Origin: Candidatus Altiarchaeales archaeon WOR_SM1_SCG
GTDB lineage: Archaea; Altiarchaeota; Altiarchaeia; IMC4; WOR-SM1-SCG
Length of the DNA: 62,700 nt
Assembly (NCBI GenBank): GCA_001723845.1
Contig: MCBE01000110.1
Location: 1-62,700 of the forward strand
Direction of reading: 5' to 3'
Positions 6,091 to 26,251 of the stretch are shown here, one piece after another (the stretch's first letter is position 1; every line of letters begins with the position of its first letter). The notes beneath the pieces were generated by a model. The model was not told where the DNA came from and ran no database searches. It worked only from the letters and a program-made list of their open reading frames with translations. The position numbers and the translations under genes are program-made.

Positions 6091-6120
6091 TTATGTCCTG
6101 TTATGTCCTGTTATGTCCCC
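6091..6120. repeat. 10-nt tandem repeat TTATGTCCTG x3
   Basis: Read directly from the sequence. Lies in the R2-s1 intergenic region. TTTTGCGTCA motifs flank it at 6071-6080, 6150-6159 and 6161-6170. Confidence 0.8.
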
Positions 6121-6189
6121 TTTATTAGTTGCTTATTTATCCTTTATTGTTTTGCGTCATTTTTGCGTCATGTTGACGCGAAAGTACAG

Positions 6190-6233
6190 CCGTTAATCGT
6201 CCGTTAATCGTCCGTTAATCGTCCGTTATGTCC
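6190..6233. repeat. 11-nt tandem repeat CCGTTAATCGT x3 plus a partial fourth copy, spanning the R2 stop codon
   Basis: Read directly from the sequence. Units at 6190-6200, 6201-6211 and 6212-6222, then the degenerate CCGTTATGTCC. Confidence 0.8.
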
Positions 6234-10024: not shown

Positions 10025-10100
10025 GATTTTTTTTTGATTTTTGATTTTTTTTTTGATTTTTGATTTTTTTGTTTGTATATATTTTTCCGACATCAATTTT

Positions 10101-10144
10101 TCGGTTACTTTTCGGTTACTTTTCGGTTACTTTTCGGTTACTTT
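10101..10144. repeat. 11-nt tandem repeat TCGGTTACTTT x4
   Basis: Read directly from the sequence. Lies between the R4 stop (10157) and the s3 start. Confidence 0.85.
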
Positions 10145-10156
10145 TTATTATTCATT

Positions 10157-11524: not shown

Positions 11525-11967
11525 TCTTTTTTGAGGACATAATAAATATTAGGATTATGAGTTTGTAAGCCGAACCTGAACTCCAGATGGTGCTTTCCTG
11601 CCGAAAGAACCTTACCTGTCCCCGTTCCCGTTTCACTGCATTCGTAATTCCCGACGAAAATTGAATTATTAATTAATTCGTAATTTAAGGTTTCATTCCC
11701 GCACCTGACCCCAAGGAACATTAAATCTTTATTAAATTCGGTTCCGTTAACGGCGGTAATCCACAGGTCAGCGGTTCCGGTTGTGTTGAACATTACCGTC
11801 CAGTTGCCGCCGACCGCGGGGTAGGACTGGGGGTTAATTATCGTGATATTCGCATCCCCGCCGGGCGGGCTATCCGATGCAATCGGAAGAGCGCACGCTA
11901 ACGCTATGAAAAGCACGATTAGTCCGGTTCCGGACAACGCCTTATTTTGTTTTGGTTTTTGGTTCAT
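11521..11967 (-). CDS. Small exported protein s4 (148 aa from MNQKPKQNKALSG; the 201-aa track ORF is an upstream over-extension)
   Basis: Same domain as s1-s3. ATGA overlap with the R4 start (11521-11524). The proposed ATG (11967-11965) overlaps the R5 stop TGA (11966-11964) as ATGA. Confidence 0.6.
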   Translation of the reverse strand: MNQKPKQNKALSGTGLIVLFIALACALPIASDSPPGGDANITIINPQSYPAVGGNWTVMFNTTGTADLWITAVNGTEFNKDLMFLGVRCGNETLNYELINNSIFVGNYECSETGTGTGKVLSAGKHHLEFRFGLQTHNPNIYYVLKKE

Positions 11968-13382
11968 TGTTTTTGGTTTCTTGCCATTTTTTCTTGCCAT
12001 TTTTGGCGAGATAGCGTATAATATGTTTTCCTGCCAATACTCTTTTTTTGGATTAAGGCATAATCTATTAATCTCGTTAATTCCCGGTTTGCAGTTCTTG
12101 CAGGAACGTTCAGTAGTTTCTCGCATTCAGTACGGGTTATTGCGCCCGTATTCTGCAAGTACATAAGAACTTTCAACTGCTTCTCCGATAGTTTAACCTG
12201 CTCCATTACTTTCTTCTCAGATTCAAACTTCTCTTTCGTTGAGAATATCTTAACCTCTGTTGTGTAATCATCTGTTGTGATTTTTGGCTGTAATGGTTTG
12301 AGAGGATGCTGTTTATGCTCTTTAATTATCTTATCCCAACCCTCGCCAACTCCTTCAATATATCTAACCCTTGACAGCACGTCTGCTATGATTTCGTTTC
12401 TGGAATGCTGCTTACTGACAATGTTATCAGGGGTTATTCCCGGAAGTAATCCGCCGGGATTGTAATATTCTATTCTATCGTCAAACATCTTTATTATTAC
12501 TTTTGACCCCGTCACCATATAGTCCCTATGAGCAGCAGCATTAACCACCAGCTCTCTGATCGAAAACCACGGGTATTCCGGGATGTCTTGTCTTTCAACC
12601 TGATATGGGAGCAGGCGCCCCATCATCGTAATATGCCCTTTTATATATCTGTCGCATTCGTCTATTTGCCTGAATAGATTACCCTTAAATTCTTTATAAT
12701 CCATCCTTTCGATTCCGATTTCCTTGCCCCCGTATCTCGCAAGAGCGATATAAGCATTTCGGAAAAAATCCTGTGGAGTTTTGCCAAATAAAATAATCCC
12801 CGCATTAGTCGGCATATCCTCTTTTATGCACCCTAACGCCCCTAATAGATTGATATGGCTGCCAACAACCTCTTTCTCTGCATATTTTTCATACCTTAGT
12901 ACAAAAAATTCTCTTACGAAATTCATATCAATGTCGTTCAAACTCGCTTCCTCACAAATTTCAGAATCAAAATGCACTCCTTTTTTCTCTAATATGATTC
13001 TCTCCAGTTCATCGGGCGGGATTACCACGTTTTCGGTTCCAACCCGTTTATATGCAATTCCATCCAGATAGTAAAGTTTGTTCTTTCCTTCTTTTACCTC
13101 AACCTCAATAAACTTCATTCCTCCGGTATCCAAAACTTTAATTTCCGGGCTCATCTCAGGTTTTATCTTCTGCCTTATTTTCTGTGATATTGACCTCAAA
13201 GTGGAGTCCGAAACCTCCTGCCCGACTACCTTCCCTCCGTGGATTCCGAAATAAACGCTGCCTCCCCTGTGGTTCAAAAACCCACATACTGCCTTCAGAC
13301 CCTTCTCTAACTGAGCCGTTGATTTCTTGAATTCTACCTTCTCGGATTCGCTATATTTTAGTAATTCATTTATTTCATTCAT
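11964..13382 (-). CDS. COG2865-type putative regulator R5 (first gene of the array)
   Basis: 472-aa ORF with the conserved N-terminus. Motifs: IRELVVNAAAHRDY...IKMFDDRIEYYNPG...IEGVGEGWDKI, then LSEKQLKVLMYLQ wHTH. Confidence 0.8.
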   Translation of the reverse strand: MNEINELLKYSESEKVEFKKSTAQLEKGLKAVCGFLNHRGGSVYFGIHGGKVVGQEVSDSTLRSISQKIRQKIKPEMSPEIKVLDTGGMKFIEVEVKEGKNKLYYLDGIAYKRVGTENVVIPPDELERIILEKKGVHFDSEICEEASLNDIDMNFVREFFVLRYEKYAEKEVVGSHINLLGALGCIKEDMPTNAGIILFGKTPQDFFRNAYIALARYGGKEIGIERMDYKEFKGNLFRQIDECDRYIKGHITMMGRLLPYQVERQDIPEYPWFSIRELVVNAAAHRDYMVTGSKVIIKMFDDRIEYYNPGGLLPGITPDNIVSKQHSRNEIIADVLSRVRYIEGVGEGWDKIIKEHKQHPLKPLQPKITTDDYTTEVKIFSTKEKFESEKKVMEQVKLSEKQLKVLMYLQNTGAITRTECEKLLNVPARTANRELTRLIDYALIQKKSIGRKTYYTLSRQKWQEKMARNQKQ

Positions 13383-13516
13383 TCTTTTTTATTTTGTAAC
13401 AATTTTAACAAAATTTTAAATTTTTTGTTATTTTTGTTATTTTTGTGTTTTGCTGCCCATCAAAACCCCCGCAGCCCGGCTTTCCGGGTACGGGATAATT
13501 TTTTTTAAAATTTTTG

Positions 13517-13671
13517 ACACGCCCTCCTGTCCCATCATGCAGTTGAAAAGCGTACGGGGAGCTATAACGGCTATGAATGGCTGACTGCCGCATCCGAGGT
13601 ATAGACGCAGGCAGGTTGAATATGACAGCCATTTTTGCCTCTCAACTGCAAATTTTGGTGGAGGGTATGCC
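13517..13671 (-). ncRNA. Candidate structured RNA element L1 (long form of a repeated family), ~135 nt upstream of the R5 start
   Basis: GC-richer patch in an AT-rich spacer. Nested complementary pairs (plus-strand spelling): CCCTCC/GGAGGG, TGCAGTTG/CAACTGCA, AATGGCTG/CAGCCATT. Homologous to 25396-25557 with different but still complementary stems. The minus strand is preferred because the plus-strand A-C mismatch in the CTGCCGCATC/GACGCAGGCAG hairpin becomes G-U on the minus strand. Confidence 0.45.
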
Positions 13672-13688
13672 AATTTTTTTATGAAAAC

Positions 13689-13795
13689 CGCCTCTTTTTC
13701 CCAGATCCATCAAGGGAAAATATAACGGCAATTTAGATGCTTACACGGGGAAGTGTTTTGCAAGATTACCCTGATGGAATTTTTGGTAAGAGACG
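13689..13795 (-). ncRNA. Candidate structured RNA element S1 (short form)
   Basis: Outer stem CTCTT/AAGAG and inner stem CCATCA-GGG/CCC-TGATGG. Conserved GTCCCA-like, AATATAACGGC and TTTTTGGTA blocks. First of three tandem copies. Confidence 0.4.
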
Positions 13796-13828
13796 AATTT
13801 TTTGTTTTTTTGTTTTTTATGAGACACT

Positions 13829-13935
13829 CTGCCTCTTTGTCCCAAATCCATCAAAGGGAAATATAACGGCAAGTTGCTTGAAAACGGGTGAGTGATTTCA
13901 AGATTTACCCTGATGGAATTTTTGGTAAGAGACAG
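13829..13935 (-). ncRNA. Candidate structured RNA element S2
   Basis: Same architecture as S1: GCCTCTTTGTCCCAAATCCATCAAAGGGAAATATAACGGC...CCCTGATGGAATTTTTGGTAAGAGAC. Confidence 0.4.
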
Positions 13936-13961
13936 AATCGTCATCTTTTTTAAATTTAACC

Positions 13962-14068
13962 CTGCCTCCCTGTCCCAAATCCGCCAGGGGAAATATAACG
14001 GCTAAGTTGGTTTAAAATCACGGGGAGTGATTTACATTATCCTGATGGATTTTTTGGTAGGGGGAGGG
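13962..14068 (-). ncRNA. Candidate structured RNA element S3
   Basis: Same architecture, but the outer stem is changed on both sides (CTCCC/GGGAG instead of CTCTT/AAGAG), which is a compensatory change. Confidence 0.4.
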
Positions 14069-14156
14069 TTTTTGTTTTTTTGTTTGTTTTGTTTTTTGTT
14101 TTTTTTGTTTATTGTTTATTTTATTATTTTTATTTGATTGTGATTTTTTTTTATTT

Positions 14157-17100
14157 TCATGCAGCAATTGTATCGTTTCTCGGAATGTTTATCCAGTAAC
14201 CTTTCCCGGGCTTAATTTCCGAAAGGTCGCCGAACCAATCGCCGTAGGCGTAAGAGCGGTAATTCCACCGCCCTTCCCATGTTGCAAGATCAATGTATGT
14301 TAGTGTCAGGTTTTGAACAGGGAATGCACTTGTTGAAGGCCAGCCGATAAGATTCCAGCCGCGATATAATGTAATGTTAAATTCGTTTATTGTTTTCCCG
14401 CTGATTGTTAAGTTATCCGCTTCTTTCATATTCAGCCAGTAGCCCTTCTTCGGCTCAATTTCCGAAAGGTCGCCGAACCAGTCACCGTAGGCATAGGAGC
14501 GGTACTGCCACCGGTTATTCCATGCGGCAACATCAATGTATTTTCCTTGAATTGGCTCAAGGATTGAAAGGATTGAAGTGTCGTCCGGCTGGATTGGAAT
14601 TGAAATCAGGTTCCATCCCTTTTCAAGTTTCAAGGTGTAGTTAAGTTCTGTTGAGTTAATGCAGTCAATACATCCCGAAATTGCAATAACCGTTGACGAA
14701 CTAATGTTAAACTCGCAGTCAGGGCAGAGTTCGGGATGCTCCGGGTCAAGGTAGGAGAGGGTTACATTGTTTCTTGCCGTGCTTCCGACACCCGGGATTA
14801 CCTGCGCCCTGTACTTGATTGACACCTGCTGTCCCGGCGTTAAGAAGAGCCATTTTGAAAGATTCCAGAACAGTATCTCGCCCATGCCGTCGCCTGTCTG
14901 CTCACCTGTCACATTAAACAGGTCGCCGGAGTTACCGTCAAGAAGTTCGCCGTGAAAATGACTGCAGTTCCCGCCGTACTGCGCGGTGTAGTTTCCTGCT
15001 GCTTTATCAGTATAATCTCCGCAGACCGTCGGCTCAATTTTTAAGTCGCCGACATAAGCATAGCCGGGCACATATTTGATATAGGGGGGCATTGTGTCTG
15101 CAAGCGTTAAGGGTGCGATATTTGCACCCGCGGGATTGTTCCAGATTACAACCATGTAGTCAATGTATTCAAAGAATGTGGGTGAATTTGTTGAAGCATA
15201 CTTGTAAAGTTCCGCATCCGCGATATATCCTCTCATTTCAAAAGATGTGCTGTTCGGTCCTACCTGGCTGCCGTTGCCTGTAACTCCCGAAACATTCACG
15301 GTGTTGTTGAATGTCGTGTTCTGGACATTACACTTGACATGAACCCTGAATGTAAGTATTCTCGTGGTCTTGGGAGGTATCACGACCAGTGCTTCAGTAT
15401 TGGTATCTGTAAAGTTGGTATTTGTCCAGTTCCAGGTAAGGTTTAACTGCCCCGTATCATTTGAGCCGCACTCGAATTCCCTGATTCCCGTCCAGTTGGG
15501 GTCGCTTATTTTCCTGCCGTCAAGTTTTGCAGTCCCGTCTGTGTAATTAAAGCCCCTTGGTAAAAATTCCGTGATCGTGATATTGTAAACGGTTGCATAA
15601 GTCGGGTTTTCAATGATTATCGTAATTAATGGCTCTGAACCCGGCTCAACATCATGCTGGCTTACATCCTTGACTATTTCAAGAGCGGGCTTATAGACCG
15701 TAATTGATATACAGTACTCGTCCGTGTATCCTGTATTTGTGTTATCGTAGCCCGTAATATTTGCACAATTTTCATTGATTCCTCCCGATGCGTTGTCGGT
15801 AACAATTGCCGTGTATTTTATTGTTTTCTTTTCACCTGCGTTTAAGGTAATGTTTCCGAAAATTATGATGTTATTTGTTGAACTTCCGGCTGAACTTTGT
15901 TCCGATTCATTCATCCCTGTGATGCTTTGCGTTACTTCTAAAAACTCCCATCCGGGACTCATTGTATCATTGACGGTTACATTGTAAAGAGTTGATTCGC
16001 CGTCGTTTTCAAATATTAAAGTAAATTCTACGATGCTTCCCGGCTCTGCTGTTGTGATGCTTGAGAGTTTTTCTATGCCGACCCCGGGTTTTAAGACGGC
16101 AACACATTTCCCGGCGTATTTTTTAATAATTGAATTATTCATCATATCGGTTGCATTGTATGACGCAATATCACAGCCGCGAATATCGGCACCCGAAGAA
16201 ACCGAAGTATTGAAATATAAAATTAATTCTTCTCCCGGTGAAAGTGTGATTACGGCATCGGGGGTAAATTCAACCGAACCCATTGTAGAATTAACGGTAA
16301 AATTATAATCAACTGTACTTCCGCCGGTACGGGTTAATACACCGGTCCCGTTTGAAGTGACAGTATGCCCGTCCTGCACATCATCGGTAATCCCGTGAAT
16401 TTTCGCATCCGCCTTTGCAGAATTCGGATTTGTAATTCGTATCTCATAATTCACGATATCGCCGGGGCTTGCAGTAGATATGTCTGAAAATTTCTCTATG
16501 TCAAGATAAGGATGGTTGATAATAACGCATTCCCTGTCAAAGTCGGATGATGCGTTTTCGTTATCGTAGTAGTGACCCAATGCCCACGCCTCGTCGCATC
16601 CTGATTCAGAATTTGCTCCTGCCGTCATATTGAATTTAATTGTAATTCCTCCGTAGGATGCAAGATTCCCGTTTATGATTGTGTTTTCATTGCTTATGGT
16701 TGATAAATCAAAGTAAAGTGCAATTTCATCTATTCCCATGCGGTTTACCGTTGCATTCGTGATGTTAATTGTCCCGAGAGGTATGAGCCATTCCTTAAAG
16801 CCGTTGCTTCTCAATTCATAGACGCCTGCTTCCCAGTTTTCCGGATAGAAACCGGTCTGGTTGAATTCATAAACCGAAACATTATATGCAAGTGCTTCGG
16901 AAGGATTGAAAACAGAGATTTCATAGCCCAGGATGTCACCGGGCTGTGCTTCCGAAATGTTAACATGCTTTCTTACCTGTACCGCGGGGTGATAAACGGT
17001 AATACTCCAGGCATCCGTTGCATTAACAAGAGAGCATCCCGCAAAATCCCTTGCCGCTGCCGTAACAAGGTTTACGCCCGGAGGTGTTGTTGTGTTTGCG

Positions 17101-20100
17101 GTTGCTTGTGCAGTGCATTTAATTGTTATGCTGCTGTTCTTTTCAAGCGATGACAGGTTCCATGTTACCGTGTTTGTTACGCTGTCGTTATCTCCTTCCG
17201 GAGAACTGCTGATGTATGTAAAGCCCTGCTGGAATATGTCCGTGACAATAACATTGTACGCGTCTGCCTGACCCGGATTACTGATAATAATTGCATAATT
17301 AATCAGATCACCGACTTCTGCTTTTGTAACATTTGCATATTTCGTCACTTCAATGAACGGGTGAACTATTAATACCTCAACGGAGTCGGGAATTGAAACG
17401 ATATTTTCCAGCCCGTTAGAAGCGCTTGCATAAACCTCGTCTATTCCCATGTTTATTTCGCAGTTTCCTGTCTGTGTTGTTAAATTAAAATCAAGAATTA
17501 CGGAACTTCCGGGAGTTAAATTTGTATTTAAATTTGTTGAATTCCAGAATAATGTATTTCCGCTTTCCTCCGGGTCGTTAATTCCCGAGCCGTTAAATAC
17601 CGATGAGCCGCTTACATAACTCATTCCCGTTAATGTGTCGGTAACGGTGATGTTGTACGCTGTTCCCGTTCCGGTGTTTTCAATTGAGACATGATATGTC
17701 ATTGTTTCTCCCGGCTCCATTGAACCGGAATCAGCCCACTTGTGAACTTCCAGTTTTGGTATGCCGACGGCAAAACTTGCAAAATCCGTATCCGTAATTT
17801 CCGGCTCGCACGGTCCATTCCCGGAAGCAACGACCTTATTGATGTTCGTGCCTTCAAATGCGTCTTCGGTGATGTTTGCCCTTATGTAAAATATTTTGTA
17901 TGAATTGCCGCTGATGTTTCCTGCCGAGAAATTTACTGACTGCCCTGCGTATGGCGTTCCTGTCGTGCTTGTCGTTACCTCATTCCCGGAAGCATTCGTG
18001 CAGTTTATGAATTCCAGCCCTATTGAAAGGGTATCGTTCACCGTGACATCGTATATCGTTGTATTGCCCCTGCTGCTCACATTAATAATAAATTCAATTA
18101 TGTCTCCCGGCTCGTACCTTAATGCGCCTGCGATATTCTTTGAAACATCAAGTATTACATCAGATACTATGTCTGTTGAAGCATAAGATGATGCGTTCAA
18201 AATTGTCCCGTTTGAATCGTAAGCGTAAGCATCAATATAATTGTAATATTCACCGAAACATTCAAGTCCGGGGACAGAAACATCATACCTGAACCTACAT
18301 ACCGCTCCTGCAGATAGGTTCCCGGTTACTATGAAATGACTCCCGTTGTGCGTAACATTACATGTAGAATTTGTTAAATTTATTATATTATTTTCATATT
18401 CCCACCCGCCGGGCAGGGTATCGTTTAAAGTGATATTGTAAAGTGTCCCGTCTCCCGAATTACCCAGGATAATTTCATAAGTTACATTATTCCCCGGGTA
18501 AGATAATGAATCAATTGACATTTTATCAACCGTTAATATTCCCCTCCATATCGGGCAGACCTCCCATATATCCTGTAGATACGGCTTTTGTGTCCCGTCG
18601 CCGTCATGGTAATTAACTGTAACGATATTTATGCCGCATTTCGCATCGGATGTTACGGAAGTGTTGTAAATTAATGTTACGCTCTTTGTCGGAGGAATAT
18701 AAGGTATCGTGTAATTCCAGTAAATTGTTGAGCCGGCAGGCGGGTTTGTTTCATTCAGGGTTTCGTTTATTGTAATATTCATTACCGTTCCGTTCCAGAA
18801 TGTCAGCGTGCCGTTACTTATTAACCTGAAGCCGTGCTGGAGGTCATCCGAAATTGTGATATCATAAGCGGTTGCAAGGCTCGGGTTATGGATAGTTATG
18901 GTATATTCAACAATATCTCCCGGCTCTGCATCCGTTGCATTCCCTGTTTTTGTTAAAGTCAACTCAGGGTGATGAACTTCCACCTGCGCGTAATCACATA
19001 TATGTCCGCCTCCTTCAGGGATTAATCCCCACGGCGGCTCTGCGGGGTTATCAGTCCCGTTTGTGCATGCCCAGTTTGTATTTATCAAGGGTGTTGCGTT
19101 TGACATCACATGAACCGTGAATTTTATTGTAATATTTTCTCCCGGCTCAAGCACATTGGTAAAATTAGTAGGCACAAGAAACTTACTATATCCGGAATGC
19201 CACATCTCGCTGTACCAGTCAATGTTCCAGGTTATGTTCTGCCCGACGCTTACAGTTCTCCCGACGGAAACATTGCCCTCCCCGATAAGTATGTCATTAC
19301 CTGAGTAATTGACAATATATGATTTATTCGCATACCTGAACCAGGGGGGAAGCGTATCGTTAAGAGTTACATTGTACGCATGCGCATGCGATGGATTTTC
19401 AATAATTATAGTAAAATTAAATTCATCTCCCGGCTCTGCGGTTATCAATTCCTGCCAGTCCCCGACATATTTTTCTATTGTTAAATTCGGATGCACGACA
19501 GGAATCTCGGGAGTGGTGTAACTCAGACATGAAGTTTCACCAACCAATGCATCTGCACAGACATTTGCGGTATTATTTTCAACAAAACTTGCATTGGAAT
19601 GAACATAGAGCGTGAAGTTAATCTGCCAGTATTCTCCCGGCTCCAGAGTTCCATCTGTTATGTTCCAGTAATATATCCTTCCGATTGAATAATTCGTCAC
19701 CGAACCATTTGAAGTTGTATAATTTGTCCAGGCAATAAGCGTCGTATTTATCGGCATTTCATCCCATACCGTAAGATTGTAAAATGTTACATTGCCAGTA
19801 TTGGTTACAAGTATGCTGTAATCCGCGTAATCTCCCGGTTCAAGAGGACCCCCGGGATAGCCGCTGCCGTTTTCATAGTTTCTCGTCATGTTGGTAATAG
19901 TTTTTGTTATGTTCATCCCGGGAAGCGAGGGATAGAATTGAATCACAAAAACGGGAGTTGCAAAAGGAAATATTTCCTCGGAAAAATAAACGCCGTGCAT
20001 GAATCCGTAATTCAAGTCCTCAATTGTCCAGTTTGATGCCGTGCCGTTGAACATGTCTATTGCCTGCACCTCAATTTCAAGAAGCCAGTTCGTCATATTC

Positions 20101-23100
20101 CCGACTTCAAGTAATGTCCACATCAATCTCTGCTTTCCGAGATAATCCACCGGGTCGTGTGTCTGTATATAAAGATTTGTCCAGTTCCAGTTCTTTTCCC
20201 CGATACCCCATACACCGTTGGGGTAATTGGGGTCGGTGCTGTTTCTTATGGTAATATTTGCATATCCTGTGTAGTTCAGAAACTGCGGGAGGTCATCGCC
20301 GACATCCATATAATCCCATGTAAAATTCTGGATTGATGAAAAATTAATGAATATTTTGCCGGTTTCCCCCACCGTAAAAACTATGGTGCTTCCGTTCTCG
20401 CTTGCAAGATTGCCCTCTGAATCAGCCATGTCTTTTTCTATCCCGGAACTTTCAACGCTTGCAAACCCGAAGCAGACCTGACCGGTAGAGTTGTGATTGG
20501 TAAGAATCTCCCATGTCGTTTCATTATATGTTATCGCCTGGTATGTTATGTTTACGCAGTTTGTCAGGTTCCCGAGCCGGCTGTCGTTTGCATGCAGGGT
20601 GAACTTGATTTCATTATCACTAAGCCGGCTAATATTCCTGAGATATGAATTGGTGATATAAGAAATATTAATTACGGTAAATTCCGATTTATTATCTGCC
20701 GATGGACAGGTAACGCCTGAAACATTAAGAGTCACATTATCATAACCCGTAACCGGAAGACCTGTTGTCCGGTTATATCTCGTGTAAGTCGCGTTTTTAT
20801 TGCACAAATAAGTTATATTCAAACCCCCGGTATAAGTATAATAATCCAGCAGGGTAACATTAACCATATAGATAAGCGGGTTTAAATCCCCGAATGTTAA
20901 TCTTACTTCCATATCGGATTCATTGAGTACTACTCTCGGACCGACCGATTTTTCAATCCATACATTTGGCGTCGTTATAGCGACTTCTTCATGGATTGTA
21001 GAATTTCTAACATCTGTAGCATAAGGAGAGCAATAATTATAATCAACATCTAAAGCAGGTCTTACAAAACCATCCGGGTTTATATATCTCAGGTGTGTCT
21101 CGTAGGTAAATCCAAGCGTTTCGCCGATATATGTTGCTTCCGCACCCCCGGTTCCCCCGAGAGTACCTAAATAAAAGTATATGTGGGTTTCCGGCCAGGG
21201 CAGTGTGGATCCGGGAACTTCAACCTCCCTGATGCAAACTATTGGATCAGGCGTGCTTGCATTGAATGCTTCATGAATATCTTCCGGCTCGCAGGAGTCG
21301 TTAACATCAAAAACAATGGTAACATTATCCGTGATTTCCTGTTTCCCGTAATCATTATGCAGGAACCATATTCTTAAGGTATTGATGTAAAATTTGAGTT
21401 CCTGCGGGATGGTATGATCAACAAAAACATAGTCTGCAGCCTTAGCGCCGACATTCGTAACATTTCCAGTGATATTTGTATTGTCGCCGACAAGCAGGGC
21501 GGTATCGCTGACCTCCAGGTTGGTGATGAGATACGGGCTTACTGATTCTATTGGGGAATTTGAGCACGGGGAGGATGCGATTCTATAGGGCTTCACCGGC
21601 TTATCGGATGTGAACCTCAGCCCGGTATCCCGCCCCCAGCTGCCATCTAATGACCCGTTTGCATACACGCCGTCCGTACCGCTCATGTGTATCATCCCGC
21701 GGGAGTTCAGTATAAATGAATGGAGGCATGATACCCCACCCGATTGTGTATTTACCCATCTTAACTGTATCCTGCCGTCCAAAAAGAACCCGAAGGTGTA
21801 GCCGACTGTGTTGTTGTTCGCCCATAATGTCAGGGTGTTTCCCCCGGTAATTAAAGCGGTCATGTTCATGCCGGTTATGTTTATTGTCGCATTATAGGTG
21901 TTAGCACTGTCTCCCGAGTACATACTCTGGCAGTTTGTCAGGGTGTATATACCTGTACCTGGGTTTTGAACGGAACTTGCCGTGGTGCAGCTGACTGTCA
22001 TATTGCTCGCTACCGACTGGTTGTTGTATAGTATTATGGTTGTGTTCACCGCCTGGAAACCCAGCGGGTAGTTCAATGTGCCTCCCACATAATTATAAGC
22101 ATACTCGGTAGTATCACCGCGGTTGAAACAAACGGTTGAGGAATGATTGAATGTCATAACGGTTGGTGGGTAGCAGTCAACCTGGTACCATGTCCAGGAT
22201 GCCCCGCCGACCTCGCCGCCGTGAGCTGCAACATCATTGAAGTTATAGTGCATGAAAAACGGGAACTCAAAACTCTTATCACCGTAACCGACGGGAGGGG
22301 TGCGGGAATAGAGATGGTTCTTGTGGAACTCACTAGGGCTTGCACTGGGGCTGTCAAAACTGTGAACATTTGACATCCCGCCTGCAACAGCACTTATATC
22401 CTCCGTGCAGTTCAGCCGGCAGTGAGGAGGAGGAGTGGCACTTGGATTGTAGCCGGAACTTTCAAGATAACCTGATGTGTGGGGCAGGATAGTCAATGTG
22501 TCTTCAATAATGCTTCCCGGCAGCAGAACTGTAAAGGTGTGAGTCGGATCATCTACCCGTGACGACTGGTTGCACGAGAAAGTGCAATCAGCACTGTTAT
22601 CCGACGGGTTAAAAACATTCACCCCCACATAATAAGTTGCAGTACTGGCACTTGCGTATCCCACCCCGAAGACATAATGCTTGCCCAGAAGCAGTCCCGT
22701 GTCATAAGCGCCAAGCCAGTTCATTGTGTCAATGTGGTGCAGGTGCTGGATAATGTGTACTTCGCCGCACGATGCTGTTATAATAGCCGTGGTTGAATTA
22801 AGACCCGGGGAAGAATTCCCCGTCGGGGCGACATTCACATGACGGCATACAACATCTTCAAGAACGCCGTTTCCTGTGATATTGAAGATTATGTTACCTG
22901 CGGGAAGACCGCTGAACTGTGACTCCTCGCCGGTGGAAGCGTTGATCGGCATAATCGTAACAGTCACCGTACCGTTGTGCGAGGTGCAGATATCAACAGC
23001 CTGGGGGCTGTAAGAAAGGTCCCAGGGACCCGCATTGTAATCCGGCCAGTGGATGATGAATTCATCTGAAAGGAACCTACCCTCTGTAGCGGGCGGGGAC

Positions 23101-23459
23101 CTCAGCGCGCCGAATGCACCTACATAAAGGTATCCTGTATCGTTTGCATATATATGTACAAAATAATGTTCTGACTGCTGCCTGCTTATGTCTCTTGCCT
23201 CCCCCTTATCCACCACCTCGGAGTATAACAGAACCTCAGAGCCGTTGTCCGTAATCCTGTAGAATGAAATATTAGTATTATTATTAAATGGTATGAAAGA
23301 TATAAAACCCATGTGGTTGGTAACACCCGTAACATCCGCTGTCCAGCCGTTCAGCGGGTACACCACGAACTCCGAGCCGATTAAACCGGTGTATCCTTCA
23401 GCATACTGTGCTGCCAGCACGACAAGCGCTATTAACGCGTAAAGGCGTATGTTTCTCAT
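14157..23459 (-). CDS. Giant exported surface protein (3100 aa) with many DUF11/TIGR01451-type repeats and a duplicated C-terminal module
   Basis: Signal-like N-terminus MRNIRLYALIALVVLAAQYAEG. Recurrent L.I.K......PGD.V.Y.I...N.G...AYN(V/I)T(V/L).D.LP pattern (e.g. AEPGDIVEYTITIHNPSLATAYDITISDDL). The C-terminus carries 2 copies of GWNLI...W..RW.YRSYAYGDWFGDLSEI.P.KGYW. Very rich in N-x-S/T sequons. Confidence 0.9.
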   Translation of the reverse strand: MRNIRLYALIALVVLAAQYAEGYTGLIGSEFVVYPLNGWTADVTGVTNHMGFISFIPFNNNTNISFYRITDNGSEVLLYSEVVDKGEARDISRQQSEHYFVHIYANDTGYLYVGAFGALRSPPATEGRFLSDEFIIHWPDYNAGPWDLSYSPQAVDICTSHNGTVTVTIMPINASTGEESQFSGLPAGNIIFNITGNGVLEDVVCRHVNVAPTGNSSPGLNSTTAIITASCGEVHIIQHLHHIDTMNWLGAYDTGLLLGKHYVFGVGYASASTATYYVGVNVFNPSDNSADCTFSCNQSSRVDDPTHTFTVLLPGSIIEDTLTILPHTSGYLESSGYNPSATPPPHCRLNCTEDISAVAGGMSNVHSFDSPSASPSEFHKNHLYSRTPPVGYGDKSFEFPFFMHYNFNDVAAHGGEVGGASWTWYQVDCYPPTVMTFNHSSTVCFNRGDTTEYAYNYVGGTLNYPLGFQAVNTTIILYNNQSVASNMTVSCTTASSVQNPGTGIYTLTNCQSMYSGDSANTYNATINITGMNMTALITGGNTLTLWANNNTVGYTFGFFLDGRIQLRWVNTQSGGVSCLHSFILNSRGMIHMSGTDGVYANGSLDGSWGRDTGLRFTSDKPVKPYRIASSPCSNSPIESVSPYLITNLEVSDTALLVGDNTNITGNVTNVGAKAADYVFVDHTIPQELKFYINTLRIWFLHNDYGKQEITDNVTIVFDVNDSCEPEDIHEAFNASTPDPIVCIREVEVPGSTLPWPETHIYFYLGTLGGTGGAEATYIGETLGFTYETHLRYINPDGFVRPALDVDYNYCSPYATDVRNSTIHEEVAITTPNVWIEKSVGPRVVLNESDMEVRLTFGDLNPLIYMVNVTLLDYYTYTGGLNITYLCNKNATYTRYNRTTGLPVTGYDNVTLNVSGVTCPSADNKSEFTVINISYITNSYLRNISRLSDNEIKFTLHANDSRLGNLTNCVNITYQAITYNETTWEILTNHNSTGQVCFGFASVESSGIEKDMADSEGNLASENGSTIVFTVGETGKIFINFSSIQNFTWDYMDVGDDLPQFLNYTGYANITIRNSTDPNYPNGVWGIGEKNWNWTNLYIQTHDPVDYLGKQRLMWTLLEVGNMTNWLLEIEVQAIDMFNGTASNWTIEDLNYGFMHGVYFSEEIFPFATPVFVIQFYPSLPGMNITKTITNMTRNYENGSGYPGGPLEPGDYADYSILVTNTGNVTFYNLTVWDEMPINTTLIAWTNYTTSNGSVTNYSIGRIYYWNITDGTLEPGEYWQINFTLYVHSNASFVENNTANVCADALVGETSCLSYTTPEIPVVHPNLTIEKYVGDWQELITAEPGDEFNFTIIIENPSHAHAYNVTLNDTLPPWFRYANKSYIVNYSGNDILIGEGNVSVGRTVSVGQNITWNIDWYSEMWHSGYSKFLVPTNFTNVLEPGENITIKFTVHVMSNATPLINTNWACTNGTDNPAEPPWGLIPEGGGHICDYAQVEVHHPELTLTKTGNATDAEPGDIVEYTITIHNPSLATAYDITISDDLQHGFRLISNGTLTFWNGTVMNITINETLNETNPPAGSTIYWNYTIPYIPPTKSVTLIYNTSVTSDAKCGINIVTVNYHDGDGTQKPYLQDIWEVCPIWRGILTVDKMSIDSLSYPGNNVTYEIILGNSGDGTLYNITLNDTLPGGWEYENNIINLTNSTCNVTHNGSHFIVTGNLSAGAVCRFRYDVSVPGLECFGEYYNYIDAYAYDSNGTILNASSYASTDIVSDVILDVSKNIAGALRYEPGDIIEFIINVSSRGNTTIYDVTVNDTLSIGLEFINCTNASGNEVTTSTTGTPYAGQSVNFSAGNISGNSYKIFYIRANITEDAFEGTNINKVVASGNGPCEPEITDTDFASFAVGIPKLEVHKWADSGSMEPGETMTYHVSIENTGTGTAYNITVTDTLTGMSYVSGSSVFNGSGINDPEESGNTLFWNSTNLNTNLTPGSSVILDFNLTTQTGNCEINMGIDEVYASASNGLENIVSIPDSVEVLIVHPFIEVTKYANVTKAEVGDLINYAIIISNPGQADAYNVIVTDIFQQGFTYISSSPEGDNDSVTNTVTWNLSSLEKNSSITIKCTAQATANTTTPPGVNLVTAAARDFAGCSLVNATDAWSITVYHPAVQVRKHVNISEAQPGDILGYEISVFNPSEALAYNVSVYEFNQTGFYPENWEAGVYELRSNGFKEWLIPLGTINITNATVNRMGIDEIALYFDLSTISNENTIINGNLASYGGITIKFNMTAGANSESGCDEAWALGHYYDNENASSDFDRECVIINHPYLDIEKFSDISTASPGDIVNYEIRITNPNSAKADAKIHGITDDVQDGHTVTSNGTGVLTRTGGSTVDYNFTVNSTMGSVEFTPDAVITLSPGEELILYFNTSVSSGADIRGCDIASYNATDMMNNSIIKKYAGKCVAVLKPGVGIEKLSSITTAEPGSIVEFTLIFENDGESTLYNVTVNDTMSPGWEFLEVTQSITGMNESEQSSAGSSTNNIIIFGNITLNAGEKKTIKYTAIVTDNASGGINENCANITGYDNTNTGYTDEYCISITVYKPALEIVKDVSQHDVEPGSEPLITIIIENPTYATVYNITITEFLPRGFNYTDGTAKLDGRKISDPNWTGIREFECGSNDTGQLNLTWNWTNTNFTDTNTEALVVIPPKTTRILTFRVHVKCNVQNTTFNNTVNVSGVTGNGSQVGPNSTSFEMRGYIADAELYKYASTNSPTFFEYIDYMVVIWNNPAGANIAPLTLADTMPPYIKYVPGYAYVGDLKIEPTVCGDYTDKAAGNYTAQYGGNCSHFHGELLDGNSGDLFNVTGEQTGDGMGEILFWNLSKWLFLTPGQQVSIKYRAQVIPGVGSTARNNVTLSYLDPEHPELCPDCEFNISSSTVIAISGCIDCINSTELNYTLKLEKGWNLISIPIQPDDTSILSILEPIQGKYIDVAAWNNRWQYRSYAYGDWFGDLSEIEPKKGYWLNMKEADNLTISGKTINEFNITLYRGWNLIGWPSTSAFPVQNLTLTYIDLATWEGRWNYRSYAYGDWFGDLSEIKPGKGYWINIPRNDTIAA

Positions 23460-23537: not shown

Positions 23538-24512
23538 TCATATATAATTTTCACAATATCTCATAATATTGGGGTCCTCGCCATACTCCTTTATCATGCA
23601 ATCACACATTTCGGTGATGTGTGCTGTGTTGTTTGAAACCCCCTTGATCTTGTAATAACATGATGCCCTGTTCCTCCCGGTCAGGTTCCTGCATATCTCA
23701 AATGAAGCGCTTGCATTAATTTCCTTAATCGCCTTGGCGGCGTCTATCTGGCACATATGCGAAAATATATATGAATACCTTTCGGCAGCAAGTGCGCCCT
23801 CGTTACATATATCAAGTGCTTTCCTGTAGTCATATCGAGCAACCTCTTTTGCAACGCCCGGGTAACACGCAAGGCACCCGCCATCTGTATCATTTACGCA
23901 TTCCCTGCACATGAGTGCCGCACCTTCGGAATCATTCCCTGCCATAAATACCGCAGCAGGCGTGTAACAGGAACTATCTTTGATTTTACGGCAAACGGCA
24001 AGCGTTTCATTAACGCCCCTGCGCGCAATAGCATACGCTATGCTTTCATAGCATAACCAGCTGGGTGAGGTAAGGTTACACAGGAAAATAGCGGCATCAC
24101 TATCCGATTTAACAACAACTGACGCCAGTGAAGTATAGCAGTTAAACCATCCTGAAACCATTTTATTGCACAACCCGACGCTTTCATTCAGGCTACTTAT
24201 GTTTTCACCGGTCAGGGTAATCGCTATCTTCTGGAAACAAATACTCCGGTCTGTTTCATTCAGATTACTGCAAACTTCAATTGATTTATTTAAATTCCCC
24301 TGGTAAAAGTAACATTTTGCTCTTTCATCCCATGTTAAATTTTTGCATGAATCGGTTACCTGCTCATCTGAATTTTCACCCGGTGTTTGTAGTTCTACCG
24401 GCTCATGCTGCTCCTGCTCCTGCTGAGGATTGTAATAATTAATTAAAATTAGTCCTGCTGCGGACACCGCTAAAAGCATTACTGCGGTTATCATTTTTGA
24501 TTTTTTATTCAT
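23538..24512 (-). CDS. Exported/anchored Cys-rich repeat protein (324 aa)
   Basis: N-terminal hydrophobic segment, then ~30-aa periodic Cys-containing helical repeats (KCYFYQG, SICFQKIA, FNCYTSLA, WLCYESIAYA, SSCYTPAA, LACYPGVA, ASCYYKI). Its start overlaps the upstream gene stop by 8 nt. Confidence 0.7.
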   Translation of the reverse strand: MNKKSKMITAVMLLAVSAAGLILINYYNPQQEQEQHEPVELQTPGENSDEQVTDSCKNLTWDERAKCYFYQGNLNKSIEVCSNLNETDRSICFQKIAITLTGENISSLNESVGLCNKMVSGWFNCYTSLASVVVKSDSDAAIFLCNLTSPSWLCYESIAYAIARRGVNETLAVCRKIKDSSCYTPAAVFMAGNDSEGAALMCRECVNDTDGGCLACYPGVAKEVARYDYRKALDICNEGALAAERYSYIFSHMCQIDAAKAIKEINASASFEICRNLTGRNRASCYYKIKGVSNNTAHITEMCDCMIKEYGEDPNIMRYCENYI

Positions 24513-25350
24513 TTGTGAACTTTGATCCCGGGTTTGATTTATTAATAATAACTTTGATTAATTTTTCAATTAATTGGTTGTGATTTTCCTGCTGCTTTTC
24601 CATTCTCGCAAGGATTTTTCCCGTGTTTTTGTTTGTCTTTTCTATGCCTTCAACCGCTTTTCCTATCATTTCCGCGATTATCCCGTATTTGACATCCATG
24701 GAGTCAAACTGCCGGGACATATCCTGATGGAAAGAGTGGGTTTCTGTTGTTAAGTTATCCATCTTCCCCCCCAACTCACCTCCCAGGTTATCTATCCTGC
24801 CGCCAAGTATTTTATTCCCGGATTCTGTTTTGTCGGCGAGATTATCTATTTTGCCGCTTATATTTGTGTTCATTTCCTCTATCTTGCCGCCAAGTATTTT
24901 ATTCCCGGATTCTGTTTTGTCGGCGAGATTATCTATTTTGCCGCTTATATTTGTGTTCATTTCCTCTATTTTGCCGCCAACATTGTCTATTTTGCCGCTT
25001 ATATCCGTGTTCATCTCCCTCATGTATCTTGCAGCAGTTGCCATCCTCTCAAATGTTGCCTTTGTTATATCGTCCTCCCAGATGATGTCAAATGTTTTGA
25101 ATTCGCCTGTCGCTTCCGAGTATTTTAATTCTATGTCTTCCACACTTATCGGGTACTGCTTTATTCTTATCCTCTCTATGAATTTATTTATTGTTTTTTT
25201 GTCCCCTTCACAAATTACTCTTACGGTCCCATCATCAAGGTTTTTTGCATTTCCAGTAAGATTTAAATTGAATGCCTGCTCGTCTATGTGGTCCCGGTAT
25301 CCGGCTTGCTGCACTCTTCCTTTTAATATTATTGTTGCTCGTGTTTTCAT
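24505..25350 (-). CDS. Acylphosphatase-like domain fused to a Gly/Asn/Lys-rich repeat and coiled C-terminus (281 aa)
   Basis: The N-terminus ATIILKGRVQQAGYRDHIDEQAFNLNLTGNAKNLDDGTVRVICEG fits the acylphosphatase fold signature (V.G.VQGVGFR...G.V.N..DG.V). It is followed by GGKIEEMNTNISGKIDNLADKTESGNKIL x2 and related degenerate repeats. Confidence 0.7.
   Translation of the reverse strand: MKTRATIILKGRVQQAGYRDHIDEQAFNLNLTGNAKNLDDGTVRVICEGDKKTINKFIERIRIKQYPISVEDIELKYSEATGEFKTFDIIWEDDITKATFERMATAARYMREMNTDISGKIDNVGGKIEEMNTNISGKIDNLADKTESGNKILGGKIEEMNTNISGKIDNLADKTESGNKILGGRIDNLGGELGGKMDNLTTETHSFHQDMSRQFDSMDVKYGIIAEMIGKAVEGIEKTNKNTGKILARMEKQQENHNQLIEKLIKVIINKSNPGSKFTNE
24801..24974. repeat. Near-perfect 87-nt tandem duplication (2 copies) inside the 281-aa gene
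   Basis: CGCCAAGTATTTTATTCCCGGATTCTGTTTTGTCGGCGAGATTATCTATTTTGCCGCTTATATTTGTGTTCATTTCCTCTAT(C/T)TTGC starts at 24801 and again at 24888. Confidence 0.9.
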
Positions 25351-25395
25351 GTTAATAATTACGAATTTGATTTTTTAATTTCAAAAAAATTTTAA

Positions 25396-25557
25396 CATGC
25401 CCCCCGGTCCCATACGCAGCTAAAAGGTAATCGGGGAGATACAACGGCTGCAAACGGCTAATGCCTCCCGCATCCGAGGAAGATGCGGGGGGAATTTAAT
25501 ATGATTAACCGCTGAACCGTTAAACCTTTCAACTGCAAATTTTGGTAAAGGGCATAC
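25396..25557 (-). ncRNA. Candidate structured RNA element L2 (homologue of L1), ~45 nt upstream of the 281-aa gene start
   Basis: Alignable to 13517-13671. Shared blocks: GTCCCAT, GGGGAG.TA.AACGGC, CCGCATCCGAGG, TCAACTGCAAATTTTGGT. Perfect hairpin CCCGCATC-CGAGGAA-GATGCGGG. Two stems that have C-A mismatches on the plus strand (GCAGCTA/CAACTGC and CGGCTAAT/ATTAACCG) become G-U pairs on the minus strand. Confidence 0.45.
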
Positions 25558-25597
25558 TAAATTTTAAATTTTATGTTTTTGCAAATTTTTTTTAATT

Positions 25598-25652
25598 TCA
25601 ATTCCGTCAAAAGAGATATAACGGCAAATCTTTTTTCAGGGAGTGAATTGAA
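25598..25652. ncRNA. Degenerate partial copy of the S/L element
   Basis: CAATTCCGTCAAAAGAGATATAACGGCAAATCTTTTTTCAGGGAGTGAATTG carries the ATATAACGGCAA block and the GGGAGTGA block, framed by CAATTC/GAATTG. An inverted fragment AACTTGCCGTTATATTT lies at 25943-25959. Confidence 0.3.
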
Positions 25653-26114
25653 ACATAAAATAAACTGCATTATTTTTAAATACTCCTTATTTTTCAATCA
25701 CCTCCCTGTTATTTTTATGATTGATTAAATTGATTTGCAAAACAGTTAATTGATGAACAAAAGGCGGTTTAAAAGGACAGAAGAAATAAAACAAATAAAA
25801 CAGGCAGGAACCGGAAAAAGAGTATGAAACACGGGAAATAAACTTAAAGAATTTTACAGAACCTTTTACATTTAACAATAAATCTGATAATAAACATTTA
25901 CAGCTTACTGCTTTTGTACTCCCCGTTTTTTTAAGTTTACTCAACTTGCCGTTATATTTGCCGTTATTTTAAATTTTGACTAAATTTGGGACATATTATA
26001 TAGTCTTTTATATATTAGATTGGAACTCTTTATAAATTGATTGAAAATTTTGCATGGAACAGGTGGAACACTTTGAAAAATTTCAATATTATTTCAGGAA
26101 TTTTTTATAAAAAT

Positions 26115-26152: not shown

Positions 26153-26251
26153 TCTTTTGATTATTGTTTTAGTTGTTTTTGCACTTTTTACTAAACTCGA
26201 ATGGCTTTACAAGTTGTGTCACCAGAGCTTTAGCAGTATTCACAAGAGGGT

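What the first reader, a model, noticed from the sequence alone, without database searches (positions are those of the whole stretch)
13517..14068. Four tandem copies of a structured-RNA-like element with compensatory stem changes, between the giant adhesin gene and the regulator array
The spacer holds three ~107-nt units (S1-S3) and one ~155-nt unit (L1). All share the same order of conserved blocks: outer stem - GTCCCA - inner stem - (A/G)ATA(T/C)AACGGC - ... - TTTTGGT(A/G) - outer stem.

The outer stem covaries:
- CTCTT/AAGAG in S1 and S2;
- CTCCC/GGGAG in S3;
- CCCTCC/GGAGGG in L1.

The inner stem is CCATCA..GGG/CCCTGATGG in S units but TGCAGTTG/CAACTGCA in L1. L1 adds AATGGCTG/CAGCCATT enclosing a further hairpin.

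These patches are visibly GC-richer than the AT-rich surroundings. I could not match them to any RNA family I know (not tRNA, SRP, RNase P, or TPP/fluoride riboswitch patterns).
Basis: seen in the sequence. Interest (0 to 1): 0.7.

Follow-up and report, generated by a model that had tools for sequence, protein, structure and literature searches.

The report
New structured RNA family in Altiarchaeota

Summary
Three ~110-nt units (S1-S3) and one ~160-nt unit (L1) lie at 13514-14070, with a second long unit (L2, 25387-25566) and two decayed copies nearby.

Stems covary. For the outer stem plus the start of the inner stem across S and L units, 96% of cells pair, against 84% in shuffles and 38-50% when partners are slid. 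11 of 18 pairs change on both sides.

The RNA is on the - strand, the strand of all flanking genes:
- In the L-type stems there are 57 G.U against 4 A.C cells.
- All nine units tested fold at least as well on this strand relative to shuffles.
- This strand has no U run of 5 or more.

No Rfam family, tRNA, phage or plasmid matches. A core-motif scan of 185,579 species genomes gave only chance hits. True relatives are about ten metagenome contigs from one narrow lineage related to Altiarchaeota.

In the six L-type contexts whose 3' flank is not a convergent toxin-antitoxin module, the long unit lies about 30-145 nt upstream of a same-strand gene of one gene island. That island encodes a giant DUF11 protein, secreted proteins, acylphosphatase-like proteins and AlbA_2 regulators.

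Best guess: a co-transcribed cis-regulatory or processing module. Sibling small RNAs and a mobile repeat remain rivals.

The parts
13958..14070 (-). S3, short unit. Read on the - strand: P1, internal loop ACCAAA / GGGAC, P2, hairpin with a UCCCC loop, free GCCGUUAUAU block.
13826..13938 (-). S2, short unit.
13684..13800 (-). S1, short unit.
13514..13673 (-). L1, long unit: 14-bp P1, loop ACCAAAAUU / UGAUGGGAC, 14-bp P2, P3 (AAUGGCU with AGCCGUU), P4 hairpin with a CCUCGG loop, unpaired CUCCCC.
13466..13495 (-). G+C-rich hairpin (CCCGUACCCGG AAAG CCGGGCUGCGGG) followed by UUUU. It travels with L1 in related contigs (L151, L205, L206) and may mark the 3' end of the array transcript.
14071..14156 (-). 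A-rich tract (T-rich on the + strand) between the stop codon of the giant gene and S3. The - strand RNA has no U run of 5 or more anywhere in 13383-14156.
25387..25566 (-). L2, second long unit with a 19-bp P1. With the outer stem as measured, it ends about 36 nt upstream of the ATG at 25350 (acylphosphatase-like gene that heads the 324-aa and giant DUF11 gene run).
25595..25662 (-). Decayed mini-S fragment 5' of L2. It keeps GCCGUUAUAU and a CUCCCUG loop inside a short stem.
25918..25993 (+). Decayed S-like copy in the opposite orientation (RNA sense on the + strand).
14157..23459 (-). Upstream neighbour: 3100-aa surface protein with 8 DUF11 domains. The array begins about 86 nt after its stop codon in the window, and also follows it in L205 and L206.
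11964..13382 (-). Downstream neighbour: AlbA_2 / HATPase_c_4 regulator, first of five alternating with secreted 148-201-aa proteins.
24505..25350 (-). Gene downstream of L2: acylphosphatase domain plus coiled coil. Its homologues in L098, L201 and L158 also carry a long unit upstream.

Best explanation
Shown. These units are members of one lineage-restricted family of structured RNAs, encoded on the - strand and so in the same direction as every flanking gene.

Fold of each unit:
- A long outer helix P1 (9-19 bp, different sequence in almost every copy) closes the unit.
- An invariant internal loop, 5'-ACCAAA(A)-3' opposite 5'-GGGAC-3', lies between P1 and the inner helix.
- The inner helix P2 (10-17 bp) has entirely different sequences in short and long units.
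- The core carries the invariant GCCGUUAUAU and CUCCCC blocks.
- Long units add a partner strand (UAACGGUU) that pairs with GCCGUUA, plus a hairpin with a CCUC loop.
- Short units leave GCCGUUAUAU unpaired and show UCCCC in a hairpin loop.

Inferred.
1. The units are not separate genes but parts of the transcripts of the gene island. The array S3-S2-S1-L1 follows the giant DUF11 gene with no archaeal stop signal (oligo-U) until after L1. In the six L-type contexts where it is not followed by a convergent toxin-antitoxin module, the long unit sits about 30-145 nt in front of the next gene.
2. They act in cis as a regulatory or processing module. The invariant loop and core would be the binding surface for a factor: a protein, possibly the neighbouring AlbA_2 nucleic-acid-binding regulators, or a small ligand. 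That factor would set how much of the transcript continues into, or is stable over, the downstream gene.
3. Short units are shortened duplicates that multiply the binding sites.
For: Structure:
- Long-unit alignment: 96.7% of 359 cells paired, against 38-51% when partners are slid; 0 of 500 shuffles reach the observed score.
- S and L together, P1 plus the start of P2: 96.3% paired against 84.0 +/- 1.7 in shuffles; 11 of 18 pairs change on both sides; 35 doubly changed cells against 14.4 +/- 3.

Strand:
- L-type stems (P1-P4): 290 Watson-Crick, 57 G.U and 4 A.C cells.
- P1 of 14 units: 31 G.U against 3 A.C.
- P2 of 16 units: 28 G.U against 4 A.C.
- Fold z-scores are -2.8 to -4.9 on the - sense and +1.05 to -3.3 on the + sense, for all nine units.
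- Of 8 strain-level substitutions in stems, 6 keep pairing on the - sense and 3 on the + sense.

One family: the long-unit model finds the short units.

Context:
- A long unit lies upstream of a same-strand ATG in the window (13382, 25350) and in L098, L139, L140, L158 and L201.
- All these genes belong to families found in this island.
- The order short units, then long unit, then gene recurs in L140, L205 and L206.
- The - sense has 0 U runs of 5 or more across 13383-14156. The + sense has 22 T runs of 5 or more.
Against: - There are no expression data, so neither transcription nor transcript ends are known.
- Most genes here lack a Shine-Dalgarno sequence, and A/T-rich TATA-like boxes lie between the long unit and the ATG. 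The genes may therefore be leaderless, with their own promoter downstream of the element, which would then not be in their 5' UTR.
- In L205, L206 and L151, L1 is followed by a convergent PIN toxin-antitoxin module, not by a co-directional gene.
- A 14-19 bp closing helix is atypical for a ligand-sensing switch.
- No alternative (on/off) pairing was found.
- L2-type and L158 copies are followed by U7 or U5 runs, which would suit a stand-alone RNA.
- The comparative set is small: about 9 distinct long and 6-9 distinct short sequences, many closely related. The counts therefore overstate the number of independent events.
Confidence: 0.42

Rival explanations
1. Sibling trans-acting small RNAs. 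Each unit, or the processed array, is a stable RNA whose exposed C-rich motifs (UCCCC / CUCCCC, CCUC) pair with G-rich sites in target mRNAs. This would resemble multicopy tandem small RNAs with UCCC motifs, such as LhrC or RsaE in Firmicutes (from my own knowledge).
For: - There are multiple tandem and dispersed copies.
- UCCCC lies in hairpin loops of short units, and CUCCCC is unpaired in long units.
- L2-type and L158 copies are followed by U7 or U5.
- The long closing helix suits a stable RNA.
- A GGGGAG-containing hairpin loop exists in a second conserved leader at 26766 and 28610.
Against: - On the - sense there are no TATA-like boxes at a proper distance before S1, S2 or L1, and no U runs between units.
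- Separate transcription units are therefore unlikely inside the array.
- GGGGAG is common in the window (27 sites), so target prediction carries no weight.
- This genome hardly uses Shine-Dalgarno sites.
Confidence: 0.25
2. A selfish or neutral repeat (MITE-like or recombination-spread module) whose hairpin shape is kept for its own propagation or is simply tolerated. It would have no regulatory role for the host.
For: - L098 and L139 carry the same long unit (1 nt different) before different genes.
- Metagenome contigs end inside or at the units (L151, L193, L098, L139).
- Decayed and inverted copies exist.
- L206 has an internal 29-nt duplication.
- The family is confined to one narrow lineage.
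Against: - The outer arms differ in sequence between copies yet stay complementary, through G.U on one strand only. That is not how transposase-recognised terminal repeats behave.
- There is no transposase, integrase or reverse transcriptase in the window near the units.
- No target-site duplication was noticed by eye in the flanks; no systematic search was run.
- There is no match in phage or plasmid records, nor in IMG/VR.
- Copies are few and tied to one gene island rather than scattered.
Confidence: 0.13
3. Processing cassettes. P1, the CCA/UGG mini-helix and P2, with a GAC bulge on the 3' strand and an AAA/AAU bulge on the 5' strand, would mimic a bulge-helix-bulge site. The archaeal splicing endonuclease would then excise each unit from the array, possibly as a circular RNA.
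For: - The bulges lie on opposite strands in the same arrangement as in pre-tRNA (as I recall that arrangement), flanked by two long helices.
- The tandem layout suits a multi-unit precursor.
- Archaea do excise and circularise RNAs at such motifs (PMC12558985).
Against: - The helix between the bulges is 3 bp in long units and up to 5 bp in S2 and S3, not the fixed 4 bp.
- The outer junction is a 1 x 4 loop rather than a clean 3-nt bulge (and direct reading).
- Bulge-helix-bulge sites need no sequence conservation, whereas this loop is invariant.
Confidence: 0.08
4. DNA-level element: an array of operator sites (ATAACGG-type) for the neighbouring helix-turn-helix regulators, or a strand-specific single-stranded DNA hairpin. 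It would not be an RNA.
For: - TAACGG-type motifs also occur as 11-nt tandem repeats in the promoters of the regulator genes (6190-6240).
- Long units abut the presumed core promoters of the downstream genes.
Against: - Double-stranded DNA sites give no reason for compensatory changes in 9-19-bp stems.
- They also give no reason for a 57:4 excess of G.U over A.C on one strand.
- P1 and P2 are not conserved in sequence.
Confidence: 0.06

Closest known systems
Riboswitch-like or protein-binding 5' leader aptamers, including tandem aptamers such as glycine or c-di-GMP-I leaders before adhesin genes in bacteria (from my own knowledge)
   Same: Invariant nucleotides sit at loops and junctions between stems that covary freely. 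There are size variants of one core. Copies lie before several functionally linked genes, and units occur in tandem.
   Different: - No ligand, expression platform or alternative pairing was found.
- The closing helix is very long.
- The host is an archaeon that barely uses Shine-Dalgarno sites or hairpin terminators.
- No Rfam riboswitch model matches.
Multicopy sibling small RNAs with C-rich loops (LhrC1-5, RsaE/RoxS; from my own knowledge)
   Same: Tandem plus dispersed paralogues of about 110 nt, with UCCC-type motifs exposed in loops, next to surface-protein genes.
   Different: There is no promoter or terminator per unit on the supported strand. The host is archaeal, and no sequence or model similarity exists.
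Archaeal bulge-helix-bulge processing stems (pre-rRNA, tRNA introns, intron-encoded C/D RNAs)
   Same: Long flanking helices with staggered bulges on opposite strands enclose a structured RNA.
   Different: The spacing is 3-5 bp instead of 4, the loop is invariant in sequence, and there is no rRNA, tRNA or box C/D content.
Structured intergenic repeats co-transcribed with neighbours (bacterial REP/BIME, Correia, ERIC elements; archaeal MITEs; from my own knowledge)
   Same: Repeated hairpin-forming intergenic modules, near-identical copies at different loci, assembly breaks at the copies.
   Different: The arms covary instead of being conserved. Strand-specific wobble use points to selection on RNA. 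Copy number is low and linked to one gene island.
Type III toxin-antitoxin RNA arrays (ToxI; from my own knowledge)
   Same: Tandem structured RNA repeats upstream of, and co-directional with, a protein gene.
   Different: Units are 110-160 nt rather than about 36 nt, and they differ from one another. The downstream genes vary and none is a ToxN-like nuclease.

Membership tests
Any Rfam 15 family | Covariance-model score at or above the gathering threshold. | tested here: not met
   There were 0 hits in the whole window. At E up to 10 on 13350-14200 there were only chance hits, to mir-329, Mnt IRES and CrcZ. Nothing matched L2 in 25300-28800.
tRNA / tmRNA | Cloverleaf or tmRNA fold detected by ARAGORN. 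| tested here: not met
   No gene in the window.
Bulge-helix-bulge substrate of the splicing endonuclease | Two 3-nt bulges on opposite strands separated by exactly 4 bp, flanked by helices. | tested here: not met
   The flanking helices and opposite-strand bulges are present. However, the central helix is 3 bp in long units and up to 5 bp in S2 and S3, and the outer junction is a 1 x 4 loop (and direct reading).
MITE / transposon ends | Terminal inverted repeats conserved in sequence among copies. | tested here: not met
   The P1 arms differ between copies, for example UUGGCAUACCCUCC, UAGUAUGCCCUUU, CGUGCUCUUU and CUGUCUCUU, while staying complementary.
MITE / transposon ends | A transposase or parent element in the neighbourhood, and target-site duplications. 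| tested here: inconclusive
   No transposase or integrase domain was found among the window proteins scanned. No duplication was seen in the flanks, but most related contigs end at the element.
MITE / transposon ends | Near-identical copies at unrelated loci. | tested here: met
   L098 and L139 differ by 1 nt and lie before different genes.
Riboswitch / cis-regulatory leader | Conserved core nucleotides framed by covarying helices. | tested here: met
   ACCAAA, GGGAC, GCCGUUAUAU and CUCCCC are invariant, while P1 and P2 covary.
Riboswitch / cis-regulatory leader | Location in the 5' UTR of the regulated genes. | tested here: inconclusive
   The long unit lies about 30-145 nt upstream of a same-strand ATG in six contexts. 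Transcript starts are unknown, and in L205, L206 and L151 a convergent toxin-antitoxin module follows it.
Riboswitch / cis-regulatory leader | An expression platform with mutually exclusive pairing, and a ligand. | not testable with these tools
   No alternative pairing with the downstream region was noticed. Ligand binding needs in-line probing.
Sibling small RNAs | Own promoter and terminator for each copy. | tested here: not met
   On the - sense there are no U runs of 5 or more between units. By eye, no TATA-like box lies at about -26 before S1, S2 or L1. One does precede the short unit in L140.
CRISPR array / type III antitoxin array / DGR template | Identical short repeats with unique spacers; 34-36-nt repeats before a ToxN-like gene; or a reverse transcriptase with a template/variable repeat pair. 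| tested here: not met
   Units are 110-160 nt and 64-89% alike. No Cas, ToxN or reverse transcriptase domains were found among the window proteins scanned.

The most novel reading that the evidence does not exclude
This would be a new class of archaeal sensing leader RNA, a ligand- or protein-responsive aptamer built on the invariant ACCAAA / GGGAC loop and the GCCGUUAUAU-CUCCCC core. It would be used singly and in tandem arrays of up to four to control a surface-protein and regulator gene island in an Altiarchaeota-related lineage. Long units would carry a built-in masking strand for the GCCGUUA block that short units lack.
Probability: 0.2. Interest if true: 0.85.

Novelty: new variant of a known kind. 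Interest (0 to 1): 0.62.

Why it matters
Few structured regulatory RNAs are known from archaea, and I know of none described from Altiarchaeota. Those organisms cannot be grown and are noted for elaborate cell-surface structures.

This family has three useful properties:
- It has clear covariation and an unambiguous strand.
- It has two size classes that differ by one masked block.
- It is tightly linked to a giant DUF11 protein, secreted proteins and AlbA_2 regulators.

Together these give a concrete, small RNA that could be synthesised and probed in vitro for ligands or for binding by the adjacent regulators.

If it is only a lineage-specific repeat, it still shows that RNA-level selection shapes intergenic repeats in this group.

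Tried and rejected
- Rfam at gathering and at permissive thresholds gave nothing. tRNA and tmRNA search gave nothing.
- The core DNA pattern TCCCA-N(8-25)-RGGRARMTAYAACGGC was scanned three ways. IMG/VR gave 4 chance hits. GTDB species genomes gave 85 single hits in unrelated bacteria and none in a relative; I judged these as chance from the list and from a regular-expression and nhmmer screen, not one by one. Metagenomes gave 108 loci, of which about 10 are true.
- Loci of protein homologues at 50-64% identity have no element. These were ANME-2 and Altiarchaeota MAGs and other contigs, L202-L204 and L207-L215.
- Phage and plasmid BLAST gave no match.
- Coding potential was rejected. The JGI-called 78-aa ORF over L1 is not kept, because long units differ by 1-, 2- and 8-nt indels.
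- K-turn, box C/D, H/ACA and hammerhead cores, the 11-nt tetraloop receptor and the UAA/GAN loop were checked by eye only. No convincing match was found and no tool test was run.
- Canonical bulge-helix-bulge was rejected on spacing.
- Anti-Shine-Dalgarno masking of the downstream start was rejected, because the genes lack Shine-Dalgarno sites.
- Target search for CUCCCC was uninformative, because GGGGAG is common in the window.
- The bacterial promoter and terminator scan does not apply to an archaeon.
- Contigs L147 and L150 share 30 nt of the long unit's 5' half but not the fold. They were left unexplained.

Full report
**1. What is in the sequence**

The spacer between the 3100-aa ORF (14157-23459, - strand) and the 472-aa ORF (11964-13382, - strand) is 774 nt. 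Tandem Repeats Finder reports a 139-nt period in 3.0 copies at 13675-14085. The repeat finder recovers the shared blocks, including one present in all four units (GGGGAG/AA.TATAACGGC).

With full outer stems the units are:
- S3, 13958-14070
- S2, 13826-13938
- S1, 13684-13800
- L1, 13514-13673

A search for TATAACGGC showed further copies:
- A second long unit, L2 (25387-25566).
- A decayed fragment next to it (25595-25662).
- A decayed short-type copy in the opposite orientation (25918-25993).

**2. Host and neighbours**

The window is archaeal, with an archaeosortase-type STT3, RNase J, Rad3 helicase and inositol-3-phosphate synthase. All named relatives of its RNase J at 55-60% identity are Candidatus Altiarchaeota or Altiarchaeales. 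Other proteins have closest named relatives at about 50% identity in Altiarchaeota and ANME-2.

Neighbouring genes:
- The giant protein has 8 DUF11 domains.
- The downstream genes are five AlbA_2 / HATPase_c_4 regulators alternating with small secreted proteins.
- Almost no gene in the window has a Shine-Dalgarno sequence.

**3. Relatives elsewhere**

The element matched no Rfam family, at curated or permissive thresholds, and no tRNA or tmRNA.

A pattern of the two most conserved blocks was scanned through three collections:
- IMG/VR gave only chance hits.
- One genome for each of 185,579 species gave 85 single hits in unrelated bacteria. I judged these as chance from the list and from a regular-expression and nhmmer screen, not one by one.
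- JGI metagenomes gave 108 loci, of which about ten are true relatives: L098, L139, L140, L146, L151, L158, L162 and L193.

Following neighbouring proteins added L201, L205 and L206. Loci of homologues at 50-64% protein identity have no element. Phage and plasmid records have no match. The family is therefore real but confined to one narrow, poorly sampled lineage.

**4. Structure**

RNAalifold on seven long units read on the - strand gives the following:
- P1, 10 bp in the consensus, extending to 14-19 bp in individual copies.
- A CC/GG mini-helix inside an invariant loop (ACCAAAAUU / UGAUGGGAC).
- P2, 13 bp.
- P3, in which UAACGGUU pairs with the invariant AGCCGUUA.
- A P4 hairpin with a CCUCGG loop.
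- An unpaired CUCCCC.

On eight long units, 96.7% of cells pair, against 38-51% when partners are slid. No shuffle of 500 reaches the observed covariation score.

A model built from long units alone detects the short units (E = 1.8e-6 to 3.5e-3 in the window, 5e-11 in L140). Short and long units are therefore one family.

On the joint alignment, restricted to P1, CC/GG and the first six pairs of P2:
- 96.3% of cells pair, against 84.0 +/- 1.7 in shuffles.
- 11 of 18 pairs show changes on both sides.
- 35 cells are doubly changed, against 14.4 +/- 3.

Many sequences are close relatives, so these counts overstate independent events. Even so, P1 has at least eight different sequences, and P2 is wholly different between the two classes.

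In the L2, L098, L140 and L158 lineages the partner strand pairs with the TATAACGGC block instead.

**5. Strand**

This is the main correction. The evidence for the - strand is:
- In the L-type stems (P1-P4) there are 290 Watson-Crick, 57 G.U and only 4 A.C cells on the - sense. Each G.U would be an A.C mismatch on the + sense.
- P1 alone over 14 units has 31 G.U against 3 A.C. P2 over 16 units has 28 against 4.
- All nine units tested fold at least as well relative to shuffles on the - sense (z = -2.8 to -4.9) as on the + sense (+1.05 to -3.3).
- Among strain variants (L001, L002, L205, L206), 6 of 8 stem substitutions keep pairing on the - sense and 3 of 8 on the + sense. Four are A-to-G or C-to-U changes that give G.U.
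- The - sense RNA would have no U run of 5 or more over the whole spacer. The + strand has 22 T runs of 5 or more, which would stop an archaeal polymerase after each unit.

**6. Context**

On the - sense the order is short unit(s), then long unit, then gene. A long unit lies upstream of a same-strand start codon in these cases:
- The AlbA_2 regulator in the window, about 131 nt from L1 with a G+C hairpin between (distance from the outer stem as measured).
- The acylphosphatase-like gene in the window, about 36 nt from L2 on the same measure. This gene heads the run acylphosphatase, 324-aa secreted protein, giant DUF11 protein.
- The acylphosphatase-like homologues in L098 and L201.
- A coiled-coil plus acylphosphatase pair in L158.
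- A homologue of the 324-aa Cys-rich secreted protein in L139.
- A homologue of the 148-aa secreted proteins in L140.

All the genes belong to families of this one island.

The array S-S-S-L follows the giant gene's stop codon in the window, L205 and L206. In L205, L206 and L151, however, a convergent PIN toxin-antitoxin module follows L1.

L098 and L139 carry the same long unit (1 nt different) before different genes, and several contigs end inside units. The module therefore duplicates as a block.

**7. How it most likely works**

Shown: a structured RNA family on the - strand, co-oriented with an island of surface-protein and regulator genes, in two size classes that share an invariant loop and core.

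Inferred:
- The units are parts of the island's transcripts (3' UTR, intergenic or leader).
- They act in cis as binding modules for a factor, a protein or a ligand, that sets read-through or stability into the next gene.
- Long units mask the GCCGUUA block with a built-in partner, and short units leave it free.

I put 0.42 on this.

Rivals:
- Sibling trans-acting small RNAs with C-rich loops (0.25).
- A selfish repeat (0.13).
- Bulge-helix-bulge-like excision (0.08). The geometry resembles it, but the spacing is 3-5 bp rather than 4.
- A DNA-level operator array (0.06), which does not explain strand-specific wobble use.

The weak points of the main reading are:
- There are no expression data.
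- The genes may be leaderless, with promoters between the element and the ATG.
- The closing helix is very long.
- The convergent toxin-antitoxin module in L205, L206 and L151 is a counter-example.

**8. Novelty and verdict**

This is a new RNA family of a familiar general kind: a structured regulatory or processing RNA. It has no relative in Rfam and no homologue outside one Altiarchaeota-related lineage. It is worth following up because it is small, clearly structured and testable in vitro. Its function is not established.

Noticed in passing
window 26712-26858 (-) and about 28553-28700 (-): A second G+C-rich element of about 150 nt, 92% identical in two copies. Each lies about 30 nt upstream of the ATG of a - strand gene (26252-26683, and the DUF11/DUF7507 gene 27055-28524). 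It folds better on the - sense (z = -2.9 against -1.5). Its only Rfam hit is a non-significant one to HgcG (E = 0.57). It may be another structured leader.
   Followed up: partly
window 6095-6240 and about 10097-10150: Short tandem repeats in the promoter regions of the regulator genes: ACGGACGATTA x3-4 (containing TTAACGG), GGACATAACA x3 and GTAACCGAAAA x4. The 10-11-nt period suggests arrays of protein-binding sites. TAACGG also occurs in the RNA units, but on the other strand.
   Followed up: partly
window 1-4000: Only two ORFs of 80 aa or more are listed (539-841 and 2267-2695), although G+C is 42-49%, like coding sequence elsewhere. This could be pseudogenes, a gene running off the window end, or non-coding content.
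   Followed up: no
window 34324-38646 (-): A 1440-aa protein with the full alpha-2-macroglobulin domain set (MG2, MG3, bait region, A2M, TED, receptor-binding). It is one of the few genes here with a Shine-Dalgarno-like GAGAGGTGA before the start.
   Followed up: no
L147:2588-2624 and L150:267-303: Two metagenome contigs with a eukaryote-like context (microsatellites) share GTCCCATCATGCAG and GGGGAAGCTATAACGGC with the 5' half of the long unit. They lack the rest of the fold. This is more than expected by chance for a pattern hit and is unexplained.
   Followed up: partly
L206:782-970: The L1 copy in this contig carries a 29-nt internal tandem duplication (GGCAAAAATGGCTGTCATATTCAACCTGC). This is either a natural variant or an assembly artefact.
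   Followed up: no
L205:2288-2964, L206:1146-1822, L151:366-1042: In related strains a PIN (VapC-like) toxin-antitoxin pair sits, in convergent orientation, between L1 with its hairpin and the 148-aa / AlbA_2 genes. In the window the AlbA_2 gene follows L1 directly.
   Followed up: partly
window 26110-26180 and 26955-27020: A repeated stretch, AAAAAGAGAGAAGATATACTTCTCCCTGTCTTTTG. On the - strand it forms a hairpin that sits just downstream of two neighbouring - strand genes (26252-26683 and 27055-28524). These look like shared terminator or 3'-end elements.
   Followed up: no
L140:520-1005: The gene downstream of the long unit in L140 starts like the secreted 148-aa family. It then contains a stretch resembling a Hint/intein N-terminus (CYDEKTEVLTDKGWKLF). 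The long ORF overlaps an opposite-strand toxin-antitoxin pair and is probably not real over its whole length.
   Followed up: no
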